Shown one piece after another: positions 19,512 through 37,794 of a stretch of DNA of 64,000 nt; within the stretch, counting starts at the first letter, position 1; every line of letters begins with the position of its first letter. Source of the stretch: an archaeon (lineage in GTDB: Archaea; Nanobdellota; Nanobdellia; SCGC-AAA011-G17; PNOQ01); assembly GCA_018671245.1 (NCBI GenBank), contig JABHIB010000008.1, forward strand, positions 111,756 through 175,755. The letters are read 5' to 3'. Under the pieces are notes generated by a model that was not told where the DNA came from, searched no databases, and saw nothing but the letters and a program-made list of their open reading frames with translations. Both the position numbers and the translations under genes were made by a program.

Positions 19512-20686
19512 TTTTTTAATTTTTCAATTATATTTGAAATACTAGTAGAAGGGAGATTCATCACAATTTCTTTTTTCCTACCATATCTACCTTTACTAAT
19601 AACCTTTGTTCTTATAATTCCTAACATATCTAATTCTTCAATTAAATCTGATAATCTCCTATGAGTTAGAGGTTTTAATCCACATTTATTACAAATATCT
19701 TGATATTCTTCCGAAACATCACTGGTGTAAAATTTATCACTTTTTTTAAACAAATTAAAAATAGCTAGAAGAGTTATTTGTGATTGTTTTGGTAATGTCT
19801 TTATAGCATCAACAACTATTTCTTTATCTATTTTTTCTTCAGCATCATCAACATGTTTTAATAAAACTTTAGAGGCATCTTCCCTTTCTGCAAGTTCACC
19901 AGAGATTCTTAATAAATCTAAAGCCCTTCTAGCATCTCCATGTTCTCTAGCTGCTAGAGCAGCACATTTCTCAACAACACCATTACCCAGACACCCTTCT
20001 TTAAATGCAAATTTTGATCTTTGTTCTAAAATATCCTTTAATTGAATCGCATTATAGGGTGGAAAGTTCATTTCTTCTTCTGTTAATGAAGATTTAACTC
20101 TAGGATCAAGATCACTAGTAAACCTAAGATCGTTAGAGATACCAACAAAACAAACTTGAGCATTTTCTAATTCCTGATTGATTCTAGTTAGATTATATAA
20201 TAATTCGTCACCTTGTTTTTTCACTATTTGATCAATTTCGTCAAGAAGGAGTATAATTAACCTTTCTTTTGTATCTATCCTATTGAATAATTTTTTATAA
20301 ATCTCATTTCTAGGTAATCCTGTAAATGGAACATCTTCACCCAATTCTCTAGCTAAATGTGCTACCAAACGATATTCTGTATCTGCAACATTTTTTAATT
20401 TACAATTAACATAGAATATATCTAAAGGTACATTTTTAATTTCTGCAACTTTTTTAAGATCTTGGGCTACATTTAATGCAGATAAAGTTTTTCCAGTACC
20501 AGTTTTACCATATAAAAATATATTTGAAGGTTTTTCCAACCTAAGAGCAGGTGCTAATATTCGAGATAATTCTTGTATTTGTTCTTCTCTATGAGGTATA
20601 TTATTAGGAGTATGATTGATTTGTAATATATTCTTTTTGTCAAATAATCTTTCTTTATCAAGATACGATTCAAAATAATTTTTCAT
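19496..20686 (-). CDS. cdc6: Orc1/Cdc6 replication initiator
   Basis: AAA+ Walker A LYGKTGTGKT, Walker B LLLDEID and a C-terminal winged helix. First gene of the cdc6-dp1-dp2 operon. Confidence 0.9.
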   Translation of the reverse strand: MKNYFESYLDKERLFDKKNILQINHTPNNIPHREEQIQELSRILAPALRLEKPSNIFLYGKTGTGKTLSALNVAQDLKKVAEIKNVPLDIFYVNCKLKNVADTEYRLVAHLARELGEDVPFTGLPRNEIYKKLFNRIDTKERLIILLLDEIDQIVKKQGDELLYNLTRINQELENAQVCFVGISNDLRFTSDLDPRVKSSLTEEEMNFPPYNAIQLKDILEQRSKFAFKEGCLGNGVVEKCAALAAREHGDARRALDLLRISGELAEREDASKVLLKHVDDAEEKIDKEIVVDAIKTLPKQSQITLLAIFNLFKKSDKFYTSDVSEEYQDICNKCGLKPLTHRRLSDLIEELDMLGIIRTKVISKGRYGRKKEIVMNLPSTSISNIIEKLKNWLNL

Positions 20687-20771
20687 ATTATATTAACCTC
20701 ATTTTTTATTACACAATCAAACAAGTTATTTAAAGATTATTATAATAAAATATTCACACCAGGACCCTTAT

Positions 20772-20805
20772 TTCCAATGGAATGAATTTTAATTTTGATT
20801 TAGGG
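20772..20805 (+). promoter_or_regulatory. ORB-like element 1 (mini-ORB palindrome TTCCAATGGAA plus downstream G-string)
   Basis: Sequence tttccaatggaatgaattttaattttgatttaggg. Confidence 0.45.
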
Positions 20806-21103
20806 TTTTTCGATTATCAAAAATTAACAAATTTTGTAGAAACTTTAGAATGATAACAAAAAATAAAATAAACTATATTATATATATTATATAATAAAAA
20901 AACTTAAAAAATAAAAAATAAAAAATAAAATCGAATTCTTGATTATTGTTAACCTACAAATACCTCTACTATCAAAATTATAAAATATTATTATTTTATT
21001 AAAATTATAAAATTATAAAATAAAAATATACAAAATAAAGTAAATATAATTGAAAATATTATTAAAACTCAACACGATAGTATACAGATAACAAAAAATA
21101 AAT

Positions 21104-21130
21104 TTCCATAAGAAAAAGGGGTCAGAGGGT
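21104..21130 (+). promoter_or_regulatory. ORB-like element 2 (TTCCA...GAAA...GGGGT...GGGT)
   Basis: Sequence ttccataagaaaaaggggtcagagggt. It is G-rich within an otherwise AT-only tract. Confidence 0.45.
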
Positions 21131-21191
21131 ATAACAAAATAAATAAAATTCAATAAATAATTTTATATACTAGTATAATCAAATTAATCAT

Positions 21192-21833: not shown

Positions 21834-23216
21834 TTAACTCTCCAACTTTTCTAAAATATTCTCATCAACAATCACAATATGTCCAATGCTTTTAACATTC
21901 TTGTATTTAACAATAATTCCCTTAGTTTTAAGATTTTGTTTTTTATCTAATCTAATTCTTAAACTATCAATCTTATTTTCTCCCAAGAGAACTTCATCAA
22001 CCTTTCCAATATAATTCCCTTCCCCACAATAAACTTCCCTTTTAATCAAACCTTTGATGCTATTCTTAGGATGTTTATTTATTCTATTAATTTCAATTTT
22101 TTCTATAATCTTTTTTTTATAAACAAAAGCCATTAATCCAAACAATCCGATTATTAGAAGAAATCCGAGAACATTCCAATTGTTATTAACTATACTTGAG
22201 CCACCAACAACAAAACCAGTCATAGTATTTCTTCCGATAAACAAAATTCCTACTAACATAAATCCAACAAGAATTATTAAGAAAGTTTTACCCTTAATTC
22301 TTTTCAAATTTTTCTTAATCTTGCTTTTGTATTCCTTATGTGTCTTTGGCTTTCCTACTTTTTTCTTTATTATTTTAAATTTAGATTTAAATAATCTAAT
22401 GATTAGCAAAATCAATAATACTGCAACTACACCTATAATTCCATAAACCAAATACATCCAATTAAAATTTTTTACAGGGAGTAAAGCACATTCTTCTTGA
22501 GATAAAACTTCAAAGGTTTCTCCTGCAACAGCAGTTTTATTCCCACTATAAGCAATTTCAGCATATAACCTGTATGTTCCTTGAGAAGCTGAATCTGGAA
22601 CTTTTAGTTCTATGTTGAAGCTTGTTTCTTTTTCAACAGCTCTTGTGTCCTTGTATTCAGTAATTAATTTATTATTTTTATCAATAATCCAATAAGTCAT
22701 AAAAGCATCAAGAAGTTCTACTTTAGCATAATTTTCCAATTTTACATTTGCTTTAATCTTTTTTCCAGAACAAATCTCTTTATATCCATCTTCTAAATTT
22801 AAATAAATATCAAATAAAGGTTCTGATGGGCCAAGATATTCACAAATTTGTGTTTGATTTGGCATTCCTTTTGTTCCAGTGCAATCTCCTTTATTTGCAC
22901 AAATTCTTTCTTGTATCCCTGATTCTGGGCAGATAGATGGAAACCACTCTGTACATTGCCAGTCATAAGTACACTTGCTTCCTCCAGAACTTCCTCCTCC
23001 AGGATTTGGAGTTGTGGGACAAGCTCCGCAATCTCCTGGGCAAGTTGAACAGCTTTCTCCATTATTGCAAATTCCATCTCCGCAATATAAAGACGGTGTT
23101 GAAATTTCAGAGTAATTTCCAGAACCATAAATCCCTTCTCCATAGTTACCTGCAGAAACTAATGGAATTAGAACTAATATTAATGCAAAAAAAATAAGTT
23201 TTTTTTTGATTATCAT
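21834..23216 (-). CDS. signal-peptide, Cys-rich extracellular domain, TM, C-terminal PRC-barrel-like protein
   Basis: Signal peptide MIIKKKLIFFALILVLIPLVSA and Cys cluster CGDGICNNGESCSTCPGDCGACP. TM helices near residues 255-275 and 300-360. The C-terminal 70 aa (YCGEGNYIGKVDEVLLGENKIDSLRIRL...IVIVDENIL) resemble a PRC barrel. Confidence 0.45.
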   Translation of the reverse strand: MIIKKKLIFFALILVLIPLVSAGNYGEGIYGSGNYSEISTPSLYCGDGICNNGESCSTCPGDCGACPTTPNPGGGSSGGSKCTYDWQCTEWFPSICPESGIQERICANKGDCTGTKGMPNQTQICEYLGPSEPLFDIYLNLEDGYKEICSGKKIKANVKLENYAKVELLDAFMTYWIIDKNNKLITEYKDTRAVEKETSFNIELKVPDSASQGTYRLYAEIAYSGNKTAVAGETFEVLSQEECALLPVKNFNWMYLVYGIIGVVAVLLILLIIRLFKSKFKIIKKKVGKPKTHKEYKSKIKKNLKRIKGKTFLIILVGFMLVGILFIGRNTMTGFVVGGSSIVNNNWNVLGFLLIIGLFGLMAFVYKKKIIEKIEINRINKHPKNSIKGLIKREVYCGEGNYIGKVDEVLLGENKIDSLRIRLDKKQNLKTKGIIVKYKNVKSIGHIVIVDENILEKLES

Positions 23217-25642
23217 CTTATACTCCCTCCTGGATTAATTACAAATTTACATCCATCTTCTTTATAAATTTCCCAATGAGAACTAGTAAAACTCATATTC
23301 GCATTCCAAGTTAGAGTTCCAGAACCAGTAATTGTAATATTATTTGGGACTATAAAATTAGTATCCCAAACACAATTATCAGAACATGTAATTGCCCAGT
23401 TTCCAGAATCTGGGGCTGTGCAAGTATTGAGAGCTATTGTGATTTTTCTTGTCTTAGTAATATTTAAATTTCCCCCGGTATCAATTGCATAAGCAGTATA
23501 ATTATAATTTCCAAGATTTAAATCTGTGAAATTGTTATGTAAATTATATAATCCATTATCATAAGAGGCGTTGATCTCTTCTGGACTTAATGCTCTTGAA
23601 TATATTTTGACTTCATCAATATCTCCCTTAAATAAATAACCTGCACTATTTCCTGATGCTCCTATTCTTGTAACTGCAGCACCCTTGGTTGCGGTTAATG
23701 CCTTAAAATTAGCAGAAGTTAAAGGATAATCCATTATTTCTACACCATTTACATAAACTGTTGCGGTTGTTCCATCCCAAGAGTTAACAACATGATACCA
23801 TGTATCTAATTCTGCAACAATACTTGTACCTCCAGATTGATAAGTCGGTCCACTAGCACCTGCACCTATTGTTGCAGTTATGTGGTGTGAAGTTGCTTCT
23901 AACCCAATAAAAAAAACAGAACTACCAACACTGGTTCCATCATTTCTATGAAGTGGGGTTCGCCATCCACTAGGTAAGTCTGCTGTTCGTCTTATCCAAG
24001 CTTCAACAGTCATAGCATCATAATTTCCATCAGCAGTACTTCCAAGATTAATATAATCGTCTACCCCATCGAATTCCAAAGAATATCCATATTTTCCAGT
24101 TACTAAACTTTCTTCTCCAAAATCCGCCCCAGTAAAAATTCCAAAATTATCATAACTTGAATTATCATAAACACCTGATGCATTTGTATTTTCAAAATTC
24201 CAATATCCTAACAAAGAATAATTCCAATCAAAAAATGCTGAAGTATCTAATCCGTCTGTTATTGTTGTATTTAAATAAACAAAATTTTCACTTTTTGTAT
24301 CTCCATCTGTAGGTGTGGGAGGTTCCCAAATTACTACTGGAGGATCTTGATCCACAATTGTTAAATCACTTGAATTTCCCCATTCACTATATGCTCCATC
24401 ATATAATCTCATACCACATTTCCAGACATCCCCTGAACTAGTATTTCCAGAATCTAAAACTGCATTAAATTCATAATTATTAGGATAACTTTCATTATAA
24501 TCAACAGTTAAATTCAAAACACCATCTTTATACCATCTTACTGTAACATTCATAGCATCTTCATCAATATCTAAGAGTGTATCATAACAATTTAAATCTT
24601 GATTATTTAAATTACTTCCATCAGTTGAATTAATTTCAGGAGTTGGTGTCTCTGGAGGGCCACTTACAGCAACAGTAACATTTCTTGAATCTATATTTAA
24701 ATTACCTTCTTCATCCAGAACATAAGCAGAATAATTATAAATTCCATTTTCAAGAGAAGAAAAATTATGATAAAGTCTATTTGCAGTATTATTATATAAT
24801 GCACCAATTTCTTCTGCACTTAATGCACGTTCCACAATCAATACTTCATCTACCTTACCTTTATATTGATAATTAGCACCATTACTGGATGCACCAATTC
24901 TTGTGGGAGTTGTTAAAGTATTATATGTTGCTAAAGCATATTCTTTGTTATATTCACCATTTAGATAAACTACAACATCAGTCCCATTCCAAACAGCAGC
25001 TATGTGCCACCATTCCCCATAAGTTGCAAGTTGTGTAGTTCTTCCTGCATACCAACCACCAGGGGCACCTGAATTAGCTCCAATAGTAGCAGTTAATAAA
25101 TTATCATTACTAACACCTAACCAATATGAACTTGAACCAATCGTTGTCGAAGTTGCATGATGTAAAGCACATTCATAAGAAGGGCCATCAGCAGTTTTGT
25201 AAAGCCAAGAAGCAATCGTAAGTTCGGTAGGATTACTAACAACAACATTATCTGTTTTAATATAGTCATTCACTCCATCAAATTCTAAAGCATTTCCATA
25301 TTTTCCGGTGGTTATATTTGAAGTAGTTGGTCCTCTTCCACCAAAAGTCATGAAGTTATCATAACTTGAATTATCAAAAACTCCTGTTGAATTTGTATTT
25401 TCAAAATTCCAATATCCTAACAAAGAATAATCCCAGTCAAAAAAAGCAGAAGTTTCATTATCATCGGTTATAGTTGTATTAAGATAAACCCAAGCATTTT
25501 CAGTTATATCTCCATCTGGAGGGGTTGGGGGTTCCCAAGTTATAGTTGGAGTATCAGCACTAACTAAAGCCAGAGAAAAACTAAATAATAAAAATATAAA
25601 AAAGGTTAAAATTATCTTTTTTTTTAATAATCTTTGTTTCAT
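23213..25642 (-). CDS. secreted protein with two tandem LamG/ConA-like lectin-type domains (internal duplication)
   Basis: Signal peptide. Two about 400-aa repeats each begin (T/V)(I/V)TWEPPTPxDGD...YLNTTITD...SAFFDW(D/N)YSLLGYWNFENTN. They contain LEFDGV(N/D)DYI...WYHxxxxWNGT...VYxNGE blocks characteristic of the LamG/pentraxin fold. Many N-x-S/T sequons. Confidence 0.6.
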   Translation of the reverse strand: MKQRLLKKKIILTFFIFLLFSFSLALVSADTPTITWEPPTPPDGDITENAWVYLNTTITDDNETSAFFDWDYSLLGYWNFENTNSTGVFDNSSYDNFMTFGGRGPTTSNITTGKYGNALEFDGVNDYIKTDNVVVSNPTELTIASWLYKTADGPSYECALHHATSTTIGSSSYWLGVSNDNLLTATIGANSGAPGGWYAGRTTQLATYGEWWHIAAVWNGTDVVVYLNGEYNKEYALATYNTLTTPTRIGASSNGANYQYKGKVDEVLIVERALSAEEIGALYNNTANRLYHNFSSLENGIYNYSAYVLDEEGNLNIDSRNVTVAVSGPPETPTPEINSTDGSNLNNQDLNCYDTLLDIDEDAMNVTVRWYKDGVLNLTVDYNESYPNNYEFNAVLDSGNTSSGDVWKCGMRLYDGAYSEWGNSSDLTIVDQDPPVVIWEPPTPTDGDTKSENFVYLNTTITDGLDTSAFFDWNYSLLGYWNFENTNASGVYDNSSYDNFGIFTGADFGEESLVTGKYGYSLEFDGVDDYINLGSTADGNYDAMTVEAWIRRTADLPSGWRTPLHRNDGTSVGSSVFFIGLEATSHHITATIGAGASGPTYQSGGTSIVAELDTWYHVVNSWDGTTATVYVNGVEIMDYPLTSANFKALTATKGAAVTRIGASGNSAGYLFKGDIDEVKIYSRALSPEEINASYDNGLYNLHNNFTDLNLGNYNYTAYAIDTGGNLNITKTRKITIALNTCTAPDSGNWAITCSDNCVWDTNFIVPNNITITGSGTLTWNANMSFTSSHWEIYKEDGCKFVINPGGSIR

Positions 25643-25643
25643 T

Positions 25644-27554
25644 TTAACTCTGGATTATTATTCCACTCCCATTATGATACATTTTAGCTGAGCAGTCTGC
25701 GGTGAAACAAAAAGTATCTGTTGTTGTAATATTTCCAGTTGCATTAATATCCCCCGCAACATCTAAATTTCCAGTCATAGCATCTCCACTAACATTAACA
25801 AATGCATTATCAGCATCACTTGCGGTTATGGCATTTTCCACACACCCAGTTATTTCAGAACACTCATCTTGTCCTGCAAGAGCACTATCGATTTCTGATT
25901 CTGTATAAAATAAACTTGTTAACCAACTCACCAAAATACTCAAAGTTCCATCATTATTCTCCATTTGAGTTTCATTAATAGTATTCAGGTTATCCCAATA
26001 ATCTGATGAATTAACATTTAAATCAGATTCCTCACCATCATCTATCCAATCATCTTGATTAATATCCATATAAAGTGTATCAGCTAATGATTGATTCCAA
26101 CTTGAGTTATCTCCTGTAACACTTATGCTTGCATACAAAGTGTCAGCATAAGTTTTGTTCCAATCATCTCCATAATTCACCGGAGCATAATTGTCATCAA
26201 GCAAAGTTGTCAAATCTGATTCTTCATCATAAAATATTGTTCTTGCATAACTTTCATTCCAGGATGAATTATCTCCTGCAACTCCAGAAATCTGATTATC
26301 AACATAATCTTTCATTGAATCATTAAAGATAACATCTTGTGTATCTGCATAAGCATTAGCTGGAATTGTTTGGTTGTAAGCCCAAGTGTCATAAGTTGCA
26401 TTGTATGTTGAAAGCCAGCTAGCTTCTTGTGAAGTTATATAATCAAACACAGGTGTAGATTGATTGTAATCCCATTCAATTCCTGCATAAAGTGTATCAG
26501 CTAATGATTGATTCCAACTTGAGTTATCTCCTGTAACACTTATGCTTGCATACAAAGTGTCAGCATAAGTTTTGTTCCAATCATCTCCATAATTCACCGG
26601 AGCATATAAAGTGTCTGTCAAAGATTGATTAAAAGAGGAGTTTCCTCCAGAAATTCCATCAATCCTTGTGCTCAAAGAAGAATTAACTGAATTAATTAAA
26701 TCTGTTTCATTATAATTATCTGCTATATTATCAATTGTATTATTTAACTTAGTTTCATTAAAGTAAATGGTGGTGGTATCATTATATAAATAATTTCCAT
26801 CTGCTGTTTTTTGTGTGTCTATTCCTCCCCCCCAACGAGAATCCCCTGTGTTGTTAAATATCTCATCCCATATTGTTGGAATTTCTGGTTTGTTTGTCAA
26901 GTCATTATAATCTTTATCCCATGCAGAATAAATAGGATCAGATTCACTTGTTAAATAACTCTGCAAATCACTTATCTGCGATTCTTCAATTGTAACATTG
27001 CTCCAGTCATCTGAATAAACTTTTGAAGCATAAATATTAGTAACATACAAATTCGCCCATTTTAACAATGAACTTCCTAAATTAAATAAATTATTAATCT
27101 CTGGAAGAAAAGAGCCATTTAAATATTGATTAGTTACAGTCGCATTAAGATAGCTTCCGATTAAAGATAAATTACCATTGATTATTACATTTCCATCAAT
27201 TGTTCCCCCTTCATCTTTGTCAAGATAATTAGCATCATTTGTGAACTTGCTGATTGTAACTTCTGTTAGATCTATCTTGCTTGAATTAATAGAATCATCA
27301 GCTAAATCTTCGGCACTAAGAGTTCCATCTAAAATATGGGAAGTATTTATGGAGGAAGAATAAATATTTGTCCCGTTCACCATTGTTTCATTTAATTTAA
27401 CTCCATCACTACCTGCAATTTTTGATAAAAAATCATTAAGGACCGTTCCCCAATCATTTTCATCTCCTCCTATAGTTGGAAGACGAGATGCGGATACCAA
27501 ACTCATCATCAATAAAATAAATATTCCAATTAAAAATAATTTACTTGCCCTCAT
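25644..27554 (-). CDS. secreted sequon-rich surface (S-layer-like) protein with internal near-identical repeat
   Basis: Signal peptide MRASKLFLIGIFILLMMSLVSA and more than 30 N-x-S/T sequons. The peptide block LTDTLYAPVNYGDDWNKTYADTLYASISVTGDNSSWNQSLADTLY occurs twice, encoded by about 120-bp identical DNA copies at 26068-26188 and 26486-26606. Confidence 0.5.
   Translation of the reverse strand: MRASKLFLIGIFILLMMSLVSASRLPTIGGDENDWGTVLNDFLSKIAGSDGVKLNETMVNGTNIYSSSINTSHILDGTLSAEDLADDSINSSKIDLTEVTISKFTNDANYLDKDEGGTIDGNVIINGNLSLIGSYLNATVTNQYLNGSFLPEINNLFNLGSSLLKWANLYVTNIYASKVYSDDWSNVTIEESQISDLQSYLTSESDPIYSAWDKDYNDLTNKPEIPTIWDEIFNNTGDSRWGGGIDTQKTADGNYLYNDTTTIYFNETKLNNTIDNIADNYNETDLINSVNSSLSTRIDGISGGNSSFNQSLTDTLYAPVNYGDDWNKTYADTLYASISVTGDNSSWNQSLADTLYAGIEWDYNQSTPVFDYITSQEASWLSTYNATYDTWAYNQTIPANAYADTQDVIFNDSMKDYVDNQISGVAGDNSSWNESYARTIFYDEESDLTTLLDDNYAPVNYGDDWNKTYADTLYASISVTGDNSSWNQSLADTLYMDINQDDWIDDGEESDLNVNSSDYWDNLNTINETQMENNDGTLSILVSWLTSLFYTESEIDSALAGQDECSEITGCVENAITASDADNAFVNVSGDAMTGNLDVAGDINATGNITTTDTFCFTADCSAKMYHNGSGIIIQS
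26068..26606. repeat. two about 120-bp identical direct repeats (period about 418 bp) inside the surface-protein gene
   Basis: cataaagtgtatcagctaatgattgattccaacttgagttatctcctgtaacacttatgcttgcatacaaagtgtcagcataagttttgttccaatcatctccataattcaccggagcata is present at both positions. Confidence 0.7.
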
Positions 27555-27723
27555 TTTTACTTCCCTCTTTTTTTACTGCAAGCCAATTCATCACAATAGC
27601 ACGAACAATCTCCGCATCACTCTCACCAAAGATATCTTGATATTCTCTCATAATTTCCATTTGTTTTTTAGTGAATGTTACCTGAACTTTTACAACTTCT
27701 TTCTTCTCTATCTTAGTTCCCAT
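27541..27723 (-). CDS. small ribbon-helix-helix-like protein, first gene overlapping the cargo operon
   Basis: 60 aa. A beta-strand segment VKVQVTFTKKQ is followed by two helices (MEIMREYQDIF, AEIVRAIVMNWL), the CopG/Arc-type arrangement. Its stop overlaps the start of 25644-27554 by 14 nt. Confidence 0.35.
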   Translation of the reverse strand: MGTKIEKKEVVKVQVTFTKKQMEIMREYQDIFGESDAEIVRAIVMNWLAVKKEGSKNEGK

Positions 27724-27897
27724 ACATAGAGGAATGTTTTAAGAGTATTTAAAGATTTCTATTATAATCTAATTAGAATGTTATTAGAATATATTAAGAT
27801 GTCTCAGAAATTTGACTGGCTCCGAAATCTGCTCCGCTTGATTTCTCCGCTAAAAAATCTATTAATGTAAAAAGAATTCTTAAGTTGGAGGTCAATT

Positions 27898-28038
27898 ATT
27901 ACTTCTTCTTGGGTTTATTCCAGTATGGGCTTTTACACTTAGGGCAAATAATTGGCTTTTCCTTTTTATTTCTTGGTGCCCATTCATGTCCACATCTCTC
28001 ACATTTGTAACCCTTAATCTTAATTGTTATTTCTGCCA
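27898..28038 (-). CDS. unannotated 46-aa zinc-ribbon protein with lysine tail
   Basis: Reverse complement reads MAEITIKIKGYKCERCGHEWAPRNKKEKPIICPKCKSPYWNKPKKK. The CxxC...CPxC pattern is the same as in the C-terminus of 38142-38543. Below the ORF-track length cutoff. Confidence 0.35.
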
Positions 28039-28213
28039 TAATTAGAATTAGGATAATGTATATATAAATCTTACCTTTTAGGGTATTACCTATATAGTAA
28101 TAACTTTATAGCCGAAACATTTAAATAGTTTACTTACCTTAATAAGTTATACCTAATTAGGTAAATATAAAGAGGGCTCCGAAGAGCCCTAGATTCCATC
28201 CAACGCAAATCAA

Positions 28214-29140
28214 ATGAAATCTAACAATGTAAAAAAGAGCAAGTATAAAAAACTTTCTTGTCCTAATTGCAAATCAAAAAATATAATCAAATGGACAAAA
28301 AGAAAAACAGAAAATAGAGGATTAATTCAGAGATATAAATGCAATGATTGTGATAAAACATTTACAATAAATGATGGTTTCTTTAGAATGAGAAATCATC
28401 CCAAAAAAATAACTTGTGCTTTAGATTTATTTTATAGAGGAGTTTCAACAAGAAAAGTTCAAGAACATTTTAAGGCATTTTATCCTCATAATGCAGATCA
28501 TACTTCTGTTTTAAGATGGCTTAGAAAATATTCAATAATGATTTCAAAATTCACAGATAATCTTTATCTTAATATCGGACAAGAAATTCAAATTGATGAG
28601 ATGGAATATCACAGAAGGAAATTCTATAATAAAAAGGGTGTAGATAAAAATTGGTTCATTGATTGTATTGATAGTAGAACAAGATTTATGATTTCTTCTG
28701 AATATGTTAAAGCAAGAGAACAAAAAGAACTAAAATTTGTTTTATCAAAAGCAAAACAAAAAACAGGGGAGCAAGTTAAGATTGTAACTTCTGATGGACT
28801 TCTTGCTTATCCAAATGCTATTAAGAAAGTTTATGGATTTTCAAATAAAACTCATAAACTTAATGTTTATCATAATCAGGTTAATGCTTCAAAAGGTGAA
28901 GGGTTTAACATCATGATTGAAAGATTGCACAATTCAATAAGAGAAAGAACTAAAACTTTTAGAGGTTTTCATGGTTCTGTTGAAAGTGCAAATGCAATAA
29001 TGAAGGGTTATGAAATATTCTATAACTTCATAAGAAAACATCAGTCAATCAAAAGATGTCCTTATGAACTTGCTATCCCAAAATTGAAACTTAATTCTGA
29101 AAATAAATGGATGGAGTTGATTAAAATGGCAAACGAATAA
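28214..29140 (+). CDS. IS6-family transposase (DDE) with N-terminal zinc-ribbon extension
   Basis: N-terminal CPNCKS...CNDCDK zinc ribbon. HTH block GVSTRKVQEHF...DHTSVLRWLRKY aligns with IS26 TnpA (GISYRELQEML...DHSTIYRWVQRY). DDE blocks IQIDEMEY...W.IDSRTR, VTSDGLLAYPNAI and IERLHNSIRERTK match IS26 HMDETYV, TDKAPAY and IECDHGKLKR. Confidence 0.85.
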   Translation: MKSNNVKKSKYKKLSCPNCKSKNIIKWTKRKTENRGLIQRYKCNDCDKTFTINDGFFRMRNHPKKITCALDLFYRGVSTRKVQEHFKAFYPHNADHTSVLRWLRKYSIMISKFTDNLYLNIGQEIQIDEMEYHRRKFYNKKGVDKNWFIDCIDSRTRFMISSEYVKAREQKELKFVLSKAKQKTGEQVKIVTSDGLLAYPNAIKKVYGFSNKTHKLNVYHNQVNASKGEGFNIMIERLHNSIRERTKTFRGFHGSVESANAIMKGYEIFYNFIRKHQSIKRCPYELAIPKLKLNSENKWMELIKMANE

Positions 29141-33741: not shown

Positions 33742-34041
33742 TTAAAAAAAATCTTTTAAATTTTTTCTTTCTTTTTCTCTTTTTGTCGCTTCTTCCCAAT
33801 CACATCTCTCGCTTCTCATAATCTCGACAATCTTAATTTCTTTATTCATATTACTATCTTTGATTAATTCATTTATATATATTTTTTAGTTCCATTATAT
33901 TGTTTGGCACATATAGTTTATATCCCGATACTACACAAAAGTTAACAATTGAATTCGTCTAAATATCTAGGATAAAAAATTATTATACTTGTGACAAAAA
34001 ACAAAAATATTTAAATAACAAATCTAAAATATAATGAGGAG

Positions 34042-34230
34042 GTGGGAGATTTGCCAAAAAAGAAAGTTAACCAAGGTTATGCAAAATTTTTAATATTTCT
34101 CGGAGGAGTGATATCTATACTATTTGCTTATTTATTATGGTATGAGATAATAACTCTTGCACAAGTATTTGCAATATTGTTTTTCATTGCAGGTATCGGA
34201 AAAGTATTATTTAGTTTAATCAGTAAATAG
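34042..34230 (+). CDS. small two-TM membrane protein (true start may be TTG at 34051 behind GGAGGTGGG Shine-Dalgarno)
   Basis: AGGAGG at 34036-34041. The hydrophobic 60-aa product ends 5 bp before the left 26-bp direct repeat. Confidence 0.3.
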   Translation: MGDLPKKKVNQGYAKFLIFLGGVISILFAYLLWYEIITLAQVFAILFFIAGIGKVLFSLISK

Positions 34231-34234
34231 AAAA

Positions 34235-34260
34235 ACGTTTAACCGAACAAGTCGTATACA
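34235..34260 (+). repeat. left copy of imperfect 26-bp direct repeat CGTTTAACCGAACAAGTCGTATACAC (candidate att site)
   Basis: Matches 38732-38760 (CGTTTAACCGAAAAAGTCATAGATATACA): 12/12, then 1 mismatch, 5/5, 1 mismatch, TA, 2-nt indel, TACA. Both copies are intergenic. Confidence 0.4.
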
Positions 34261-34278
34261 CGCAGGATAATAAAGAAT

Positions 34279-34557
34279 ATGCCTATAATTAGTGATAAAA
34301 ACAAACAGAAGATAAAGGAACAGATCTTATTAGTCCTGTATGAAAACAATTTAAGACCCTTATTTACCTCATCCATAGCAAGTGAATTAGCAAGGGATGA
34401 GGAGTTTATTTTATATCTATTAAATGATCTAAATTCTGGAGGATTTGTTAAGAAAATAACCAAAAACTCCGACGGTAAAATCTATTTAGCGAGAAAGAGG
34501 TGGCTCCTTCATCCGAAAGTATATAAGGAATATAATAGGCTGTCAGAGATCAATTAA
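34279..34557 (+). CDS. small winged-helix DNA-binding protein
   Basis: 92 aa. Helix-turn-helix pattern ...EQILLVLYENNLRPLFTSSIASELARDEEFILYLLNDLNSGGFVKK. Confidence 0.35.
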   Translation: MPIISDKNKQKIKEQILLVLYENNLRPLFTSSIASELARDEEFILYLLNDLNSGGFVKKITKNSDGKIYLARKRWLLHPKVYKEYNRLSEIN

Positions 34558-34576
34558 TCTAGTTTATTCATTCGTT

Positions 34577-34646
34577 ATTCACTCATTAAGCACTTACTAA
34601 TCACTCATTAACCCTCATTATTCACTCATTAAGCACTTACTAATCA
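34577..34646 (+). repeat. two copies of 26-bp direct repeat TTCACTCATTAAGCACTTACTAATCA separated by 18 bp, within a CACTCATT-motif-rich tract (34565-34775)
   Basis: Exact copies at 34577-34602 and 34621-34646. Additional CTCATT(A/C) half-sites extend to 34770. Lies upstream of the wHTH paralog gene at 34816. Confidence 0.6.
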
Positions 34647-34815
34647 ATATATATCATATTATCTGTATTATATCTACATATTATGCCATAAAATCCTATA
34701 TTTTCCTGTAAAAACTCACTATTTACTAGTATTTTTTACTAATCCCTCATTCACTAAACACTCACTATACAAAATAAGCATACAGTTTTATAAATATTAG
34801 TCTATTTCTCAAATT

Positions 34816-35427
34816 ATGTCTGAAAAAAACATAAAAAAGTCATTTTCAAAGGTCAAGGCAGATGTATCCTTGCTTTCTACTAAGATTTTGTCTATGGAAT
34901 CCAAATTAGATCGAATTCTTACTATAATTAATGAAAAAGAGTCAAAAAATGAAGAAATTAAGGCTTTTAAGGTGCCTTTTACCCGAATTTGTGCTAATTC
35001 CACTGGAAATAAGGGGGTTCAATCAATCAATCAATCACTAAACAATCATTCAACAGTCAATCATTCATTAAGCGATCAATCACTAAATATTCAATCTTTA
35101 AGAAAAGATATAGAATCTAGATTTGTAACTTTAACAAATAAGGAGTTTTTAGTATTTTTAACAGTATATCAGCTAGAGGAAGACCTTGAAAGAGGAATAA
35201 CTTACTATGATCTGTCTTCTAAGATTGGTCTCACTGCAGGATGTATAAGGGGGTATGTGAGTGCAATACTGCGCAAAGGATTACCTTTAATTAAGAGAAA
35301 AATTAACAATAGAACCATAACCTTACACATAGAATCTGAGTTTAGGAAGTTAGATGCAAAAGAAACTCTCACTACACTCTTTTATCACAATGATCCTAAC
35401 CAAAAGAGGCTTATTTCTCGAGATTAA
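34816..35427 (+). CDS. coiled-coil / repeat / C-terminal winged-HTH protein (paralog A)
   Basis: N-terminal coiled coil. A middle block (VQSINQSLNNHSTVNHSLSDQSLNIQSL) is encoded by CAATCA-type microsatellite DNA at 35020-35100. The C-terminal HTH LTNKEFLVFLTVYQLEEDLERGITYYDLSSKIGLTAGCIRGYVSAILRKGLPLI aligns with the C-terminus of 35488-36042. Confidence 0.45.
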   Translation: MSEKNIKKSFSKVKADVSLLSTKILSMESKLDRILTIINEKESKNEEIKAFKVPFTRICANSTGNKGVQSINQSLNNHSTVNHSLSDQSLNIQSLRKDIESRFVTLTNKEFLVFLTVYQLEEDLERGITYYDLSSKIGLTAGCIRGYVSAILRKGLPLIKRKINNRTITLHIESEFRKLDAKETLTTLFYHNDPNQKRLISRD

Positions 35428-35487
35428 TCGCTCACTTTCGCGATAAAACTCACCAATCTAGTTAATATAACTAATATTTTACAATAA

Positions 35488-36042
35488 TTAACTCTCACTA
35501 GTCTTCAAAATACTATTTCTCACACTATCTTCCACAAAAAATACCTTTCTTCTACTCTTCACACTAACTCTCTCTTTGATCTCAAATCCTGCCCTTTTTA
35601 TGTCATTTATGTGTCTTCTAACTGTAACTATATTTATCTTCAATTTGTTAGAAATATTGTTATAACTTAGGGGTTCTTCTGAATAAACTAATAATCCTAC
35701 CACTTGTTTTTGTGCAGGTGTTAGTTCATCTATCTTTTGAACGTTCATGATTGGTTGAACTGAACGATTGAACGATTGAACGCGTTCAATTTTTGAATGA
35801 TTCTCTTCGATAGGTATATGATTCTGTTCAATCAATTTACTTTCAAGTATCTTCAATCTATGGTCAAGTTCATTCAATCTTTTGTTGTGGTTGTCTTTAT
35901 GGTCATCAAGATGTTCAATCCATTTCCCGACTTTTTCCATATCTGTTTTAACTCTCGAAAAAGAACTATCTAAAACTGTATGAATCTCAGAAAACCTTTC
36001 TTCAACTACCTCTTTTTTTTTAAAAAAATTAATCAAACTCAT
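35488..36042 (-). CDS. coiled-coil / repeat / C-terminal winged-HTH protein (paralog B, convergent)
   Basis: Same three-part architecture. The repeat peptide VQSFNRSVQPIMNVQ is encoded by GAACGATTGAAC repeats at 35750-35800. The C-terminal HTH reads LTPAQKQVVGLLVYSEEPLSYNNISNKLKINIVTVRRHINDIKRAGFEI. Confidence 0.45.
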   Translation of the reverse strand: MSLINFFKKKEVVEERFSEIHTVLDSSFSRVKTDMEKVGKWIEHLDDHKDNHNKRLNELDHRLKILESKLIEQNHIPIEENHSKIERVQSFNRSVQPIMNVQKIDELTPAQKQVVGLLVYSEEPLSYNNISNKLKINIVTVRRHINDIKRAGFEIKERVSVKSRRKVFFVEDSVRNSILKTSES

Positions 36043-36240
36043 AATAAATTAATGGAAGTATTCCTTCTTAAATCTTTTGTTTATATTTCTGGTTTCAAAT
36101 GTTCAAAATTTGAATGTTAATAATTTGATCAATAATAAAATTGAAGATAGAAACTGGCAAAATCTTTAAAAAATATTATATAGCAAATTTTATATACTAA
36201 CAAATTCAAATTTAAACCTATAAAATTAAGGGGTGGTAAA

Positions 36241-36471
36241 ATGCCAACAAAGAAGAAAAAATTAGTAAAAAAATTAGTAAAAAAATTAGAAAGAGATGAT
36301 GAAATGAAATACAACGTTTTTTGCATAAGGCATCCAGTGAATATGGTATTACACATCATGGGACTGATAATCTTCATTTACTCATTATGGTTCCATAAAC
36401 TTCAATGGGTTCCTGTAGGTATGATTCCTATATTAGTGGGACATATATATCAATATAAAAAATGGCAATAA
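36241..36471 (+). CDS. small membrane protein with lysine-rich N-terminus
   Basis: 76 aa beginning MPTKKKKLVKKLVKKLERDD, followed by two TM helices. Confidence 0.3.
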   Translation: MPTKKKKLVKKLVKKLERDDEMKYNVFCIRHPVNMVLHIMGLIIFIYSLWFHKLQWVPVGMIPILVGHIYQYKKWQ

Positions 36472-37179
36472 AAAAAAGAGTGCTTGAATGGAAATGGGTA
36501 AAGAAAAATTTCTGGAATGTAGTCATGGTGATTATCCTTTGGCAGATAATGGTCTATGCAATATATTCTATTTTGAGATTATTCATTAATCTACCTCCAC
36601 TAGCATAAAATTAAAGATATAATCGAAAACTTATATGTTATTGATAGTTAGTATATTCGTTGTAAAATTTTACAATATAATATATGTTAAAAACATTTAA
36701 GCATTGATTAAAAATATTTCAAACAACCTATTTTTATTTTTTTTATTGATCATTTACTTGAACAGCCACTACTAACTGTTCACAACCTCTATGATTTTCA
36801 GAAATAGAAATTCTTTTCAAATCTTACAATATTATATGATTCAAATCTTACCATAATTTTTTCTAAAAATATTTATAAATAAAATATTTTATCTTTGGAT
36901 AGATATCCCAAACAACTATAGTTATTCAGAGCAGGTTGTCTAAATTCAAAGTAAGAATCATAAGCTATCTTTTATTTCTAAAATAAATCAAAATATATTC
37001 AAAAATATAAATAAAATTCTAATTTTAATAAAAATTTACAAAAAATAAGATTTATACTCAAATTATCCATAAACACCATACTTCTACCAATTCTATGGCG
37101 GAAATAGGCCATAATCACAATGTTTATAAAGAATTATTGCGTTTTTTAGGAATCTTGGAAAGAAAATAAGAGGCAATAA

Positions 37180-37794
37180 ATGATACAAAAAAAACTAAAA
37201 CCAAAAAAAACTTACAACATCTACTATCTTTCCATGGATGAATTAAATAAATTAATTGAGTCAACAAAATCCTTGAGAGATCAAATAGTTCTAAAGATTC
37301 TGGCAAGAACAGGTATGAGGAGATTCGAATTATGCAACTTAAGGGTCATGGATGTAGATTTTACTAAGAGGAGAATATTCATTCCAAAGGCGAAAGGTGG
37401 CAAATTTAGAACAGTTCCTGTAGATCGAGACACATTACAATCAATTAAATTTTACATAGGTTCAAGGCAGAATGGTAAGCTTATACAGAGTAACAAAAAA
37501 GATAATGATGGGATAGACGAAAGTAGGATCAATGCAATAGTAAAAAATACTGCGATAAGGGCCGAAATTCCCCATCCTGACCCTACAAAAAGGAATATGA
37601 ACCCTCATATACTAAGACACAGTTTTATACGTCATATGCTAAAGATTGGAGTTCCACCAAATTATGTACAACAGTTAGCAGGCCATTCAGACATCAGAAC
37701 AACATTACAAATGTATGGTATTCCTAGTTTTACAGATGTTCAAGAAAAGTACGATGAGATCTCAAACACATTTTATGGTGATAAAAATATTTAA
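37180..37794 (+). CDS. tyrosine recombinase / integrase, catalytic domain only (204 aa)
   Basis: Catalytic blocks are ARTGMRRFELCNL (Arg I), HILRHSFIRHML (H-x-x-R) and GHSDIRTTLQMYG (nucleophile Tyr). There is no N-terminal core-binding domain. A 25-codon out-of-frame ORF (MAEIGHNHNVYKELLRFLGILERK, starting at 37095) lies just upstream. Confidence 0.75.
   Translation: MIQKKLKPKKTYNIYYLSMDELNKLIESTKSLRDQIVLKILARTGMRRFELCNLRVMDVDFTKRRIFIPKAKGGKFRTVPVDRDTLQSIKFYIGSRQNGKLIQSNKKDNDGIDESRINAIVKNTAIRAEIPHPDPTKRNMNPHILRHSFIRHMLKIGVPPNYVQQLAGHSDIRTTLQMYGIPSFTDVQEKYDEISNTFYGDKNI

What the first reader, a model, noticed from the sequence alone, without database searches (positions are those of the whole stretch)
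34565..36042. Convergent paralogous wHTH regulators whose middle domains are encoded by CAATCA/GATTGAAC microsatellites, next to a CACTCATTAAGCACTTACTAATCA direct-repeat array
The genes at 34816-35427 (+) and 35488-36042 (-) share an N-terminal coiled coil, a (V/I)QS(I/F)N(Q/R)S repeat block and a C-terminal winged HTH. In both, the repeat block is written in simple-sequence DNA: caatcaatcaatcaatcactaaacaatcattcaac... on one strand and gaacgattgaacgattgaacgcgttcaat on the other. Such tracts are prone to slipped-strand expansion or contraction, usually in frame since the unit is 6-12 nt. That would tune linker length of a DNA-binding protein. Just upstream lie two exact 26-bp repeats and several CTCATT(A/C) half-sites, plausible operator sites for these regulators. 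I do not recognise this architecture as a named family.
Basis: seen in the sequence. Interest (0 to 1): 0.55.

Follow-up and report, generated by a model that had tools for sequence, protein, structure and literature searches.

The report
Origin-recognition box inside a regulator gene
The "microsatellite-encoded middle domain" of this archaeal DNA-binding protein is a disordered linker whose DNA carries a conserved replication-initiator (Orc1/Cdc6) binding site plus short repeats that match repeats upstream of the gene's own promoter, so DNA signals rather than the peptide explain its conservation.

Summary
Two convergent, weakly paralogous genes encode a coiled coil, a linker and a winged HTH. 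Both linkers are written in simple-sequence DNA, and a direct-repeat array lies upstream of gene 1.

The interpretation, slippage tuning linker length, misses the main point. In 21 relatives (35-87% aa identity) the start of the gene-1 linker keeps invariant synonymous sites, using codons that are rare in this genome. The conserved DNA is TCCAnnGGAAATnnnGGGGTC (window 34999-35019). This is the archaeal origin recognition box (ORB):
- It flanks the AT-rich origin next to orc1/cdc6 in this window.
- It lies upstream of orc1 in about 30 unrelated metagenome contigs.
- In three relatives it sits in a different reading frame of the gene.

After the ORB each lineage has its own (CANN)n-derived repeat. 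The same repeat flavour recurs upstream of that lineage's promoter, and a recognition-helix residue tracks the repeat type. Gene 2's linker holds a conserved octanucleotide repeat and a 16-bp palindrome.

Most likely reading: an origin-proximal cis-acting platform for Orc1 and the locus's own wHTH proteins, overlaid on linker-coding DNA. Binding and function are inferred, not shown. It lacks the anatomy of a second origin. No strain-level length polymorphism data could be obtained.

The parts
34561..34646 (+). Upstream direct-repeat array (U array). It has eight units of about 11 nt (TnAnTAAnCAC) and includes two exact 29-nt copies at 34575-34603 and 34618-34646. It begins right after the stop codon of the upstream 92-aa gene.
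   Evidence: Arrays of the same flavour as each species' coding repeat lie upstream of the TATA box in nearly all 22 loci. They share 13.2 7-mers with their own coding repeat, against 3-3.6 in controls. Self-pairing exceeded all 10000 permutations.
34738..34771 (+). Second, promoter-proximal repeat cluster (TAATCCCTCATTCACTAAACACTCACTATACA). It resembles both the U array and the coding repeat, and it contains a CTCACT motif.
   Evidence: Repeat families D1 and D2; CTCAC positions.
34786..34799 (+). TATA-like box (TTTTATAAATATTA) about 24 nt upstream of the ATG. This implies a leaderless or near-leaderless gene-1 mRNA. It is inferred from the sequence and was not tested.
   Evidence: Sequence. 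Comparable ATAAAA/TATAAA boxes stand at the same place in the homologous loci.
34816..35427 (+). Gene 1 (203 aa): N-terminal long helix (coiled coil), disordered linker and C-terminal MarR/ArsR-like winged HTH. It belongs to a large DPANN (Woesearchaeota/Nanoarchaeota) family.
   Evidence: The profile search found 919 clusters at 50% identity with E<=1e-3. Gene order around it is conserved.
34999..35019 (+). Origin recognition box (ORB) TCCACTGGAAATAAGGGGGTT: the dyad TCCAnnGGA plus a G-string. It lies in frame and encodes S-T-G-N-K-G-V.
   Evidence: Synonymous sites are invariant across 21 relatives: TCC 21/21, GGA 20/20, AAT 20/20, GGG 21/21, GTC 15/20. In this window TCC, GGG and GTC make up 4%, 12% and 8% of their codon families. 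The same motif occurs in another reading frame in L032, L040 and L130. The same motif flanks the orc1-adjacent origin of this window. It also lies upstream of orc1 in about 30 metagenome loci. The core TCCAGTGGAAATGAA of several relatives (L005, L006, L008-L010, L012) equals Pyrococcus ORB1 (PMC1904270); the window's own copy reads TCCACTGGAAATAAG.
35020..35096 (+). Coding repeat (D array): a perfect (CAAT)4.5 followed by five degenerate 15-nt units (CAATCAwTCAnTAAr). It encodes the low-confidence linker QSINQSLNNHSTVNHSLSDQSLNIQSL.
   Evidence: Other lineages have (CATT)n, (CACT)n, (CAAA)n, (CAGA)n, (GCAA)n or (CACG)n at the same place.
35431..35499 (+). CTCAC(T) motifs in the convergent intergenic region: CGCTCACTTT at 35429-35438, ACTCACC starting at 35448, and AACTCTCACT at 35490-35499, which overlaps the 3' end of gene 2. 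ACTCTCACTTT follows the gene-1 stop codon in about 18 of 22 loci.
   Evidence: CTCAC occurs 8 times on the + strand of 34560-35520, against 0.36 expected.
35488..36042 (-). Gene 2 (184 aa), a convergent paralogue: coiled coil, linker and an HTH_11 / sigma-70 region 4-like HTH. It has no ORB.
   Evidence: It is a conserved neighbour of gene 1 in most loci.
35738..35790 (.). DNA elements inside the gene-2 linker: the palindrome TGAACGTTCA (35738-35747), TGAACGAT x2.8 (35761-35782) and the 16-nt perfect palindrome ATTGAACGCGTTCAAT (35775-35790). The family peptide ERSIVHERVQSFNRSNQSFMNVQS is an octanucleotide (GTTCAATC)n read in three frames.
   Evidence: The rare codons CGC, CGT and TCG are conserved across six loci at 46-92% aa identity. 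They make up about 0%, 5% and 4% of their codon families in this window.
36094..36128 (.). TTGAAC/GTTCAA-type half-sites upstream of the gene-2 promoter (TTCAAATGTTCAAAATTTGAATGTTAAT). Similar half-sites occur in L001, L002, L004 and L021.
   Evidence: This is a visual match only; the k-mer test was inconclusive.
34279..34557 (+). A 92-aa small protein that looks like a winged helix by eye. It is the conserved upstream neighbour in the same orientation. Whether it takes part in the system is unknown.
   Evidence: Synteny. It has no Pfam or NCBIfam hit.
20687..21191 (.). Context: the canonical oriC of this contig. It is an 86-88% AT stretch between inverted ORBs at 20763-20781 (-) and 21105-21123 (+). 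It lies next to orc1/cdc6 (19496-20686, -) and the PolD DP1/DP2 genes.

Best explanation
The middle "domain" of gene 1 is a disordered linker. Its DNA doubles as a cis-acting platform close to the chromosomal replication origin.

The platform has three kinds of element:
1. A canonical Orc1/Cdc6 origin recognition box at +184 of the gene.
2. Immediately after it, a lineage-specific array derived from a non-triplet (CANN) repeat. The same repeat flavour forms an array with an ~11-bp period just upstream of the gene's own promoter.
3. Directional CTCAC(T) motifs at the promoter and after the stop codon.

Proposed mechanism (inferred):
- Orc1/Cdc6 occupies the intragenic ORB.
- The coiled-coil wHTH protein encoded by the gene binds the two arrays that bracket its promoter and 5' coding region, about 250-330 bp apart.
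- Expression of the regulator pair is thereby autoregulated and coupled to Orc1 occupancy, and hence to replication or the cell cycle.
- Equivalently, the site could act as a satellite Orc1-binding or titration site beside oriC.

Gene 2 follows the same design without an ORB. Its linker DNA is an octanucleotide repeat with a palindromic, operator-like site, and related half-sites lie upstream of its promoter.

What is shown and what is inferred:
- Shown: DNA-level rather than peptide-level conservation; identity of the motif with orc1-adjacent ORBs; locus-specific matching of the upstream and coding arrays; disorder of the linker; the wHTH fold.
- Inferred: binding by Orc1, binding by the wHTH proteins, looping, and the regulatory outcome.
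For: Evidence that the ORB is a DNA element, not a peptide motif:
- Synonymous sites are invariant only in codons 62-74. Other conserved columns vary freely.
- The codons used are rare in this genome.
- The motif is read in a second frame (PTEIKGS, PLEIEGS, PQEIMGS) in L040, L130 and L032.
- Of 167 family proteins, 147 carry the frame-A motif and 6 the frame-B motif.
- Tandem copies occur in some members.

Evidence that the motif is the ORB:
- Inverted copies flank the 86-88% AT origin next to orc1 in this window.
- Of about 109 non-family metagenome loci with an exact match, 38 carry orc1. In about 30 of them the motif lies less than 600 bp upstream of the orc1 start.
- In several relatives the 15-nt core TCCAGTGGAAATGAA is identical to Pyrococcus ORB1, which Cdc6 binds in vitro (PMC1904270).

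Evidence for origin proximity: oriC lies 14 kb away in the window and about 3.7 kb away in L008, L009, L014 and L016. Gene order is conserved.

Evidence on the arrays:
- Each upstream array shares 13.2 7-mers with its own coding repeat, against 3-3.6 in controls and 1.6 on the opposite strand.
- The self-pairing sum was 291 against 170 +/- 19. None of 10000 permutations reached it.
- The longest shared strings are 20-26 nt.

Evidence that the wHTH reads the arrays:
- Residue 146, next to the invariant R145 in the predicted recognition helix, tracks repeat type: CAAT goes with G, S or A; CATT with T (22/24); CACT with S (5/6); CAGA with D (5/6).
- At 50-60% C-terminal identity, residue 146 agrees in 76% of same-type pairs and in 11% of different-type pairs.

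Evidence on the protein: the linker has pLDDT below 50 and the wHTH above 90, with MarR-type fold matches.

Precedent: a Cdc6-bound ORB cluster lies inside the dp1 coding sequence in Thermococcales.
Against: - No binding data exist for Orc1 or for the wHTH proteins, so the mechanism is inference.
- A single mini-ORB was not enough for stable Cdc6 binding in vivo in Pyrococcus (PMC1904270). That paper did find that single full ORBs bind well in vitro.
- The link between residue 146 and repeat type was controlled only by matching overall identity, not by a phylogenetic method.
- The similarity of the upstream and coding arrays could come from gene conversion or a shared slippage process rather than a shared binding protein.
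- For gene 2, the k-mer test of upstream against linker DNA was inconclusive, and its second subfamily shows no matching upstream sites.
- The conserved CTCAC motif may be the true site of the largely conserved recognition helix. That would leave the arrays to another factor.
Confidence: 0.6

Rival explanations
1. The non-triplet microsatellites are contingency tracts. Slipped-strand mispairing changes linker length (3-unit slips) or switches the regulators on and off (1-unit slips), giving phase or length variation of a DNA-binding protein.
For: - The perfect units are 4 nt in gene 1 and 8 nt in gene 2.
- Every lineage keeps a (CANN)n-type tract even though the unit differs.
- Some relatives have 6-9 units: L024 (CAAA)6, L076 (GCAA)6 and L130 (CAGA)7.
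- Linker length varies by 0-45 aa between species.
- L017 is frameshifted exactly in its (TCAT)n run, and adding one 4-nt unit restores the frame.
- L142 breaks right after the tract.
Against: - The window's tract has only 4.5 perfect units and is otherwise degenerate.
- The window and L001 (87% aa identity) differ only by point changes in the tract, with no length change.
- Only 1 of about 33 loci is out of frame, and that case could be an assembly error or a pseudogene.
- The model explains neither the invariant ORB, nor the matching upstream arrays, nor gene 2's conserved palindrome and rare codons.
Confidence: 0.15
2. The locus is a second, unconventional replication origin or a centromere-like site. 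The ORB recruits Orc1 and MCM, and the iteron-like arrays are bound by the locus-encoded wHTH proteins acting as origin-specific or partition factors. Comparable cases are WhiP at Sulfolobus oriC3, or parS lying inside spo0J.
For: - The ORB in gene 1 matches the consensus better than the ORBs at the canonical oriC: 0-1 mismatch against 2-3.
- Direct repeats with an ~11-bp period stand beside the gene for a DNA-binding protein.
- Tandem ORBs occur in some family members.
- The position is origin-proximal and conserved.
Against: - ORBs occur in one orientation only, with no inverted partner in any of 22 loci.
- There is no AT-rich unwinding element: AT is 0.68-0.76 here, against 0.86-0.88 at oriC.
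- In many loci the upstream intergenic region is only about 80 nt long.
- A complete canonical origin lies 3.7-14 kb away.
Confidence: 0.12
3. The conservation is at the protein level. S-x-G-N-x-G-V plus the Q/N/S/H-rich repeats would form a functional peptide module, for example for metal binding, modification or protein interaction. On this view the DNA repeats are only its encoding.
For: The peptide motif is present in 147 of 167 family members, and gene 2 shares VQS(F/I)N(R/Q)S.
Against: - Synonymous positions are invariant and use rare codons.
- The same DNA motif is read in another frame, giving unrelated peptides.
- The repeat peptides differ completely between lineages (QSIN, HSFI, HSLT, QTNK, QTDR) while the DNA keeps a CANN period.
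- The region is predicted to be disordered.
Confidence: 0.03

Closest known systems
Archaeal origin recognition boxes (ORB and mini-ORB) bound by Orc1/Cdc6, in particular the ORB3 and mini-ORB cluster inside the dp1 coding sequence of Pyrococcus and Thermococcus (Matsunaga et al. 2007, PMC1904270)
   Same: The motif has the same form, a TTCCAnnGGAAA dyad plus a G-string. In several relatives its 15-nt core is identical to Pyrococcus ORB1. It lies inside a coding sequence a few kb from the orc1-adjacent origin, and it is conserved across related genomes.
   Different: - Here there is a single full ORB (rarely two in tandem).
- It lies in the linker of a wHTH gene, not in a polymerase gene.
- Synonymous sites are conserved across a very broad DPANN family (919 clusters).
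- It always abuts a lineage-specific non-triplet repeat that is mirrored upstream of the promoter.
- Orc1 binding has not been shown.
Cis-sites embedded near or in the gene of the protein that binds them: parS within spo0J of Bacillus subtilis, the parC iterons flanking the parMR promoter of plasmid R1, and the datA and DnaA-box clusters near bacterial origins (all cited from memory, not checked here)
   Same: Helically phased direct repeats stand at the promoter of a gene for a DNA-binding protein. Binding-site-like DNA lies inside the coding sequence. The position is origin-proximal, and the site might serve for titration or autoregulation.
   Different: The domain of life and the proteins are different. 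No ParA/ParM-type partner is seen in the locus. Binding is untested. The sites are built from non-triplet microsatellites read in all three frames.
Tetranucleotide contingency loci, for example the (CAAT)n tracts in Haemophilus influenzae lic genes (cited from memory)
   Same: A (CAAT)n repeat lies within an ORF, so single-unit slippage would shift the reading frame.
   Different: The tract is short (4.5 units) and mostly degenerate. No population polymorphism has been shown. The gene encodes a cytoplasmic regulator in an archaeon, and the tract is attached to an ORB.
MarR/ArsR-type winged helix-turn-helix regulators
   Same: The predicted fold of residues 89-192 matches MexR, MepR, HsmR and SmtB (Foldseek probability 1.0).
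   Different: There is no Pfam or NCBIfam sequence match for gene 1. An N-terminal coiled coil and a long disordered linker replace the MarR dimerisation helices. TM-scores are modest (0.3-0.36 over the query) because only the C-terminal half aligns.

Membership tests
Archaeal ORB (Orc1/Cdc6 recognition element) | Sequence: a dyad TTCCAnnGGAAA followed at a fixed spacing by a G-string | tested here: met
   34999-35019 matches TCCANNGGAAANNNNGGGG with 0 mismatches. Twenty of 21 family loci also have the preceding T. The core of several relatives is identical to Pyrococcus ORB1.
Archaeal ORB (Orc1/Cdc6 recognition element) | The same motif marks orc1/cdc6-adjacent origins | tested here: met
   In the window, inverted copies at 20763-20781 and 21105-21123 flank the AT-rich region next to orc1. 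Among the metagenome loci with an exact match, 38 carry orc1, and in about 30 the motif lies less than 600 bp upstream of it.
Archaeal ORB (Orc1/Cdc6 recognition element) | Bound by Orc1/Cdc6 | not testable with these tools
   This needs EMSA, footprinting or ChIP with the cognate Orc1 (window 19496-20686).
Archaeal replication origin (oriC) | At least two ORBs in inverted orientation flanking an AT-rich duplex unwinding element, usually beside an initiator gene | tested here: not met
   Only + strand ORBs are found in or near gene 1 in 22 loci. AT content is 0.68-0.76 around gene 1, against 0.86-0.88 at oriC. No initiator gene lies next to it.
Phase-variable contingency locus (simple-sequence repeat in an ORF) | A non-triplet repeat unit inside the reading frame | tested here: met
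   (CAAT)4.5 at 35020-35037 and (TGAACGAT)2.75 at 35761-35782.
Phase-variable contingency locus (simple-sequence repeat in an ORF) | A long perfect tract, with repeat-number polymorphism within populations and on/off frames among close relatives | tested here: inconclusive
   The tract is short. There is no length difference from L001. The exact-pattern metagenome scan gave 0 hits, so no strain data are available. One of about 33 loci is frameshifted in the tract (L017).
Winged helix-turn-helix (MarR/ArsR-like) DNA-binding domain | A helical core with H2-turn-H3 followed by a beta-hairpin wing | tested here: met
   The AF2 model has helices H108-124, H130-137 and H141-153 and strands E158-163 and E167-172, with pLDDT above 90. 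The Foldseek top hits are all MarR, MepR or SmtB. At the sequence level, gene 1 has no Pfam hit, and gene 2 hits HTH_11 at 25.3 bits against a cut-off of 25.
Iteron or centromere-like autoregulatory array (parC type) | Helically phased direct repeats at the promoter of the gene whose product binds them | tested here: inconclusive
   The 11-nt period with 5-8 units just upstream of the TATA box is met. Co-variation with the recognition helix is suggestive. Binding is not testable here.

The most novel reading that the evidence does not exclude
DPANN archaea would carry, a few kb from oriC, a conserved nucleoprotein switch whose cis-elements are written into the coding sequence of its own trans-factors. 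An Orc1/Cdc6 box is fused to a non-triplet repeat array that the encoded coiled-coil wHTH protein reads. This would couple replication initiation (Orc1 occupancy or titration, or fork passage) to expression of a cell-cycle regulator pair, or would mark the origin region for segregation. The repeat array and the recognition helix would co-evolve lineage by lineage. Occasional single-unit slippage would give a heritable off state.
Probability: 0.2. Interest if true: 0.85.

Novelty: new variant of a known kind. Interest (0 to 1): 0.68.

Why it matters
Almost nothing is known about replication control in DPANN archaea, which are uncultivated and have reduced genomes.

What the finding offers:
- A perfectly conserved Orc1/Cdc6 site inside a widespread regulator gene gives a concrete, testable handle on how these cells couple replication to gene expression or chromosome organisation.
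- It is a clean example of overlapping codes. A protein motif that looks conserved (S-x-G-N-x-G-V) is a by-product of a DNA signal.
- Non-triplet repeats are tolerated in an ORF here because they fall in a disordered linker and lack stop codons in all frames.

This matters for annotation, because the peptide motif should not be read as a functional domain. It also matters for finding archaeal cis-elements through synonymous-site constraint.

Tried and rejected
- **RNA element.** Rfam at permissive E-values on 34000-36500 gave no hit.
- **Mobile element or integrase att site.** Rejected. The tyrosine recombinase at 37180-37794 is XerA-like, and the whole neighbourhood is conserved chromosomal synteny across Woesearchaeota.
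- **Invertible shufflon swapping HTH domains.** The idea was inversion between the convergent paralogues through the inverted repeat 35017-35037 / 35761-35781, which is 21 nt and 81% complementary. None of 200 family proteins combines gene-1 and gene-2 halves.
- **Homology of the gene-1 wHTH to the Orc1 winged-helix domain.** hhalign probability was 1.6%, so there is no support.
- **Sequence search of the PDB.** Only weak LuxR/HTH hits with E above 0.03.
- **Relation to the Sulfolobus ucm/UBP system.** UBP has an unrelated beta-hairpin saddle fold.
- **Strain-level polymorphism.** The exact pattern TCCACTGGAAATAAGGGGGTYCAATC in metagenome contigs gave 0 hits.
- **Array-like k-mers at oriC or elsewhere in the window.** Uninformative, because generic AT-rich k-mers dominated the counts.
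- **K-mer test of gene-2 upstream DNA against its linker DNA.** Inconclusive.
- **Third paralogue in the window.** None found.
Full report
**Observation**

The window is a low-GC (about 30%) archaeal contig.
- Gene 1 (34816-35427, +, 203 aa) and gene 2 (35488-36042, -, 184 aa) are real ORFs.
- They are weak but significant paralogues: BLASTP 23% identity, E=2e-4, and the family HMM hits gene 2 at 4e-7.
- Simple-sequence DNA is present as described: a perfect (CAAT)4.5 at 35020-35037 inside an imperfect 15-nt-period block reaching 35096, and TGAACGAT x2.8 at 35761-35782.
- The upstream array at 34561-34646 has an 11-nt period and contains two exact 29-nt copies.
- The perfect units are 4 and 8 nt.

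**The proteins**

Gene 1 has no Pfam or NCBIfam hit. Gene 2 hits HTH_11 at the cut-off.

An AlphaFold model built on a 20-sequence alignment gives three parts:
- a long N-terminal helix (3-47);
- a low-confidence segment (44-90, pLDDT below 50) that covers exactly the repeat-encoded part;
- a confident winged HTH (89-192).

Foldseek matches MarR, MepR and SmtB-type regulators.

The family is large. A profile search found 919 clusters at 50% identity with E<=1e-3. GTDB loci come from Woesearchaeota and Nanoarchaeota MAGs.

The neighbourhood is conserved chromosomal synteny, not a mobile element. The gene order is LonB, ArgRS, a 137-aa protein, a 92-aa protein, gene 1, gene 2, a small membrane protein, a XerA-like recombinase, a Zn-ribbon protein and PAC2.

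**The key finding: a conserved DNA motif in the linker**

In a codon alignment of 21 relatives (35-87% aa identity), conserved residues elsewhere use many synonymous codons. For example L115 uses six codons. Codons 62-74 are invariant at synonymous sites:

| Residue | Codon | Count |
|---|---|---|
| S62 | TCC | 21/21 |
| G64 | GGA | 20/20 |
| N65 | AAT | 20/20 |
| G67 | GGG | 21/21 |
| V68 | GTC | 15/20 |
| S70 | TCA | 18/18 |
| I71 | ATC | 13/14 |

In this genome TCC, GGG, GTC and ATC make up 4%, 12%, 8% and 13% of their codon families.

The conserved DNA is TCCAnnGGAAATnnnGGGGTC, at window 34999-35019.

In L040, L130 and L032 the same motif lies inside family genes in another reading frame. 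It is read there as PTEIKGS, PLEIEGS and PQEIMGS. Of 167 family proteins, 147 carry the frame-A peptide and 6 the frame-B peptide. The constraint is therefore on the nucleic acid, not on the peptide.

**What the motif is**

It is the archaeal origin recognition box.
- The window contains a canonical origin. orc1/cdc6 lies at 19496-20686 (NCBIfam ORC1-type, 510 bits), followed by the PolD DP1 and DP2 genes. Upstream is a 500-bp intergenic region of 86-88% AT, flanked by inverted copies of the motif at 20763-20781 (-) and 21105-21123 (+).
- A scan of metagenome contigs for the exact 21-mer pattern returned 120 loci. Eleven matches are in family genes. Of the other loci, 38 carry an orc1 homologue, usually with the motif less than 600 bp upstream of its start, over a GC range of 0.27-0.68.
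- In several relatives the 15-nt core TCCAGTGGAAATGAA is identical to Pyrococcus ORB1. Cdc6 binds ORB1 in vitro. The same paper reports a Cdc6-bound ORB cluster inside the dp1 coding sequence (PMC1904270).

In L008, L009, L014 and L016 the orc1-adjacent origin lies only about 3.7 kb upstream of gene 1. In the window it is 14 kb away, because two large surface-protein genes sit in between.

**The repeats**

Directly after the ORB, each lineage has its own repeat derived from a tetranucleotide: (CAAT), (CATT), (CACT), (CAAA), (CAGA), (GCAA) or (CACG). These give 4-aa-period peptides such as QSIN, HSFI, HSLT, QTNK and QTDR.

The same repeat flavour forms an array with an ~11-nt period just upstream of the TATA box of the same gene.
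- Upstream and coding arrays share 13.2 7-mers on average, against 3-3.6 for control segments and 1.6 on the opposite strand.
- Self-pairing (291) exceeded all 10000 permutations (170 +/- 19).
- Residue 146, next to the invariant R145 in the predicted recognition helix, tracks repeat type: CAAT goes with G, S or A; CATT with T (22/24); CACT with S (5/6); CAGA with D (5/6).
- At 50-60% C-terminal identity, residue 146 agrees in 76% of same-type pairs and in 11% of different-type pairs.

This fits the idea that the wHTH reads the arrays. It is not a phylogenetically controlled test.

A third motif, CTCAC(T), is 22-fold enriched on the + strand of the locus (8 found, 0.36 expected). As ACTCTCACTTT it follows the gene-1 stop codon in most loci.

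**Gene 2**

Its linker peptide (ERSIVHERVQSFNRSNQSFMNVQS across the family) is an octanucleotide (GTTCAATC)n read in three frames.
- The rare codons CGC, CGT and TCG are conserved.
- It contains a perfect 16-nt palindrome, ATTGAACGCGTTCAAT, at 35775-35790.
- Related TTGAAC/GTTCAA half-sites lie upstream of its promoter in five loci, but the k-mer test was inconclusive.
- It has no ORB.

**Interpretation**

The best-supported reading is a cis-acting platform near oriC, overlaid on linker-coding DNA. Its elements are an Orc1/Cdc6 site, arrays probably read by the locus's own coiled-coil wHTH proteins, and CTCAC motifs. It would give autoregulation coupled to Orc1 occupancy, or a satellite Orc1-binding or titration site. 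Binding and outcome are inferred.

A second origin is unlikely:
- The ORBs have one orientation only, with no inverted partner.
- There is no AT-rich unwinding element.
- In many loci the upstream intergenic region is only about 80 nt long.

Slippage-driven variation remains a secondary possibility.
- L017 is frameshifted exactly in its tetranucleotide run, and one extra unit would restore the frame.
- Some relatives have 6-9 units.
- Against this, the window's tract is short, and it does not differ in length from its 87%-identical relative.
- No strain-level data could be obtained.

A purely peptide-level function is excluded by the alternative reading frames.

**Novelty**

ORBs and one intragenic ORB cluster (Thermococcales dp1) are known. 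I found nothing in the searchable literature on any of the following:
- a family-wide ORB conserved at synonymous sites in a DPANN regulator gene;
- its fusion to lineage-specific non-triplet repeats mirrored at the promoter;
- the co-varying recognition helix.

I rate it a new variant of a known kind.

Noticed in passing
window 19496-21191 (orc1/cdc6 at 19496-20686, -; intergenic region 20687-21191; PolD DP1 at 18018-19511 and DP2 at 14477-18028, -): A textbook archaeal oriC. An 86-88% AT stretch lies between inverted ORBs at 20763-20781 (-) and 21105-21123 (+), upstream of an orc1-DP1-DP2 gene string as in Thermococcales. The lowest GC of the window (0.233) is here.
   Followed up: partly
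L017 3608-4288 (Woesearchaeota MAG CBFCXS010000010.1): The gene-1 orthologue is split between two reading frames exactly in the (TCAT)n run after the ORB. Adding one 4-nt unit would restore the frame. This could be a phase-off variant, a pseudogene or an assembly error.
   Followed up: partly
L142 1-900 (ENA scaffold SUTE22-1_SAMN10231922_METAG-scaffold_59794): The sequence is 100% identical to L001 for 483 nt. It then breaks right after the coding repeat tract into unrelated DNA carrying an AbrB/SpoVT-like ORF and a TP_methylase gene, which truncates gene 1 to 116 aa. It is either a chimeric assembly at the repeat or a real rearrangement.
   Followed up: partly
window 34560-35520, + strand; also L001-L021 just after the gene-1 stop codon: A directional CTCAC(T) motif occurs 8 times where 0.36 is expected. 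ACTCTCACTTT follows the gene-1 stop codon in most loci. Inside the gene, L-T dipeptides are preferentially written CTC-ACN. The motif's function is unknown. It may be the site of the conserved recognition helix, or it may relate to termination.
   Followed up: partly
window 36256-36289: A perfect 12-nt tandem repeat (AAAAAATTAGTA x2.8) encodes KKLVKKLVKKL at the N-terminus of a 76-aa membrane protein (36241-36471). That protein is a conserved neighbour in the family loci.
   Followed up: no
window 21834-29000: Two very large secreted or surface proteins (460 and 809 aa, minus strand), plus flanking DNA, separate oriC from the PRC-barrel / LonB / ArgRS block. In L005, L008 and L009 the oriC-adjacent 102-aa gene is followed directly by the PRC-barrel gene. 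This stretch therefore looks like a lineage-specific insertion next to the origin.
   Followed up: no
L003, L005, L008, L009, L014 (about 60-110 nt after the gene-1 stop); L016 and L017: In loci where the gene-2-like gene lies on the same strand, the gene-1/gene-2 spacer carries arrays of CGTTCGnCGAACGTTCG-type palindromes. In L016 and L017 they are GTAACTTACGCGTAAGTTAC-type. These resemble the palindromes that lie inside gene 2's coding sequence in the window.
   Followed up: no
L038 964-1045, L055 1278-1359, L101, L103, L058 (metagenome loci): Exact ORB 21-mers occur as tandem pairs 61 nt apart, or as inverted pairs, next to orc1 in unrelated archaeal contigs. These could seed a cross-phylum ORB catalogue.
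   Followed up: no
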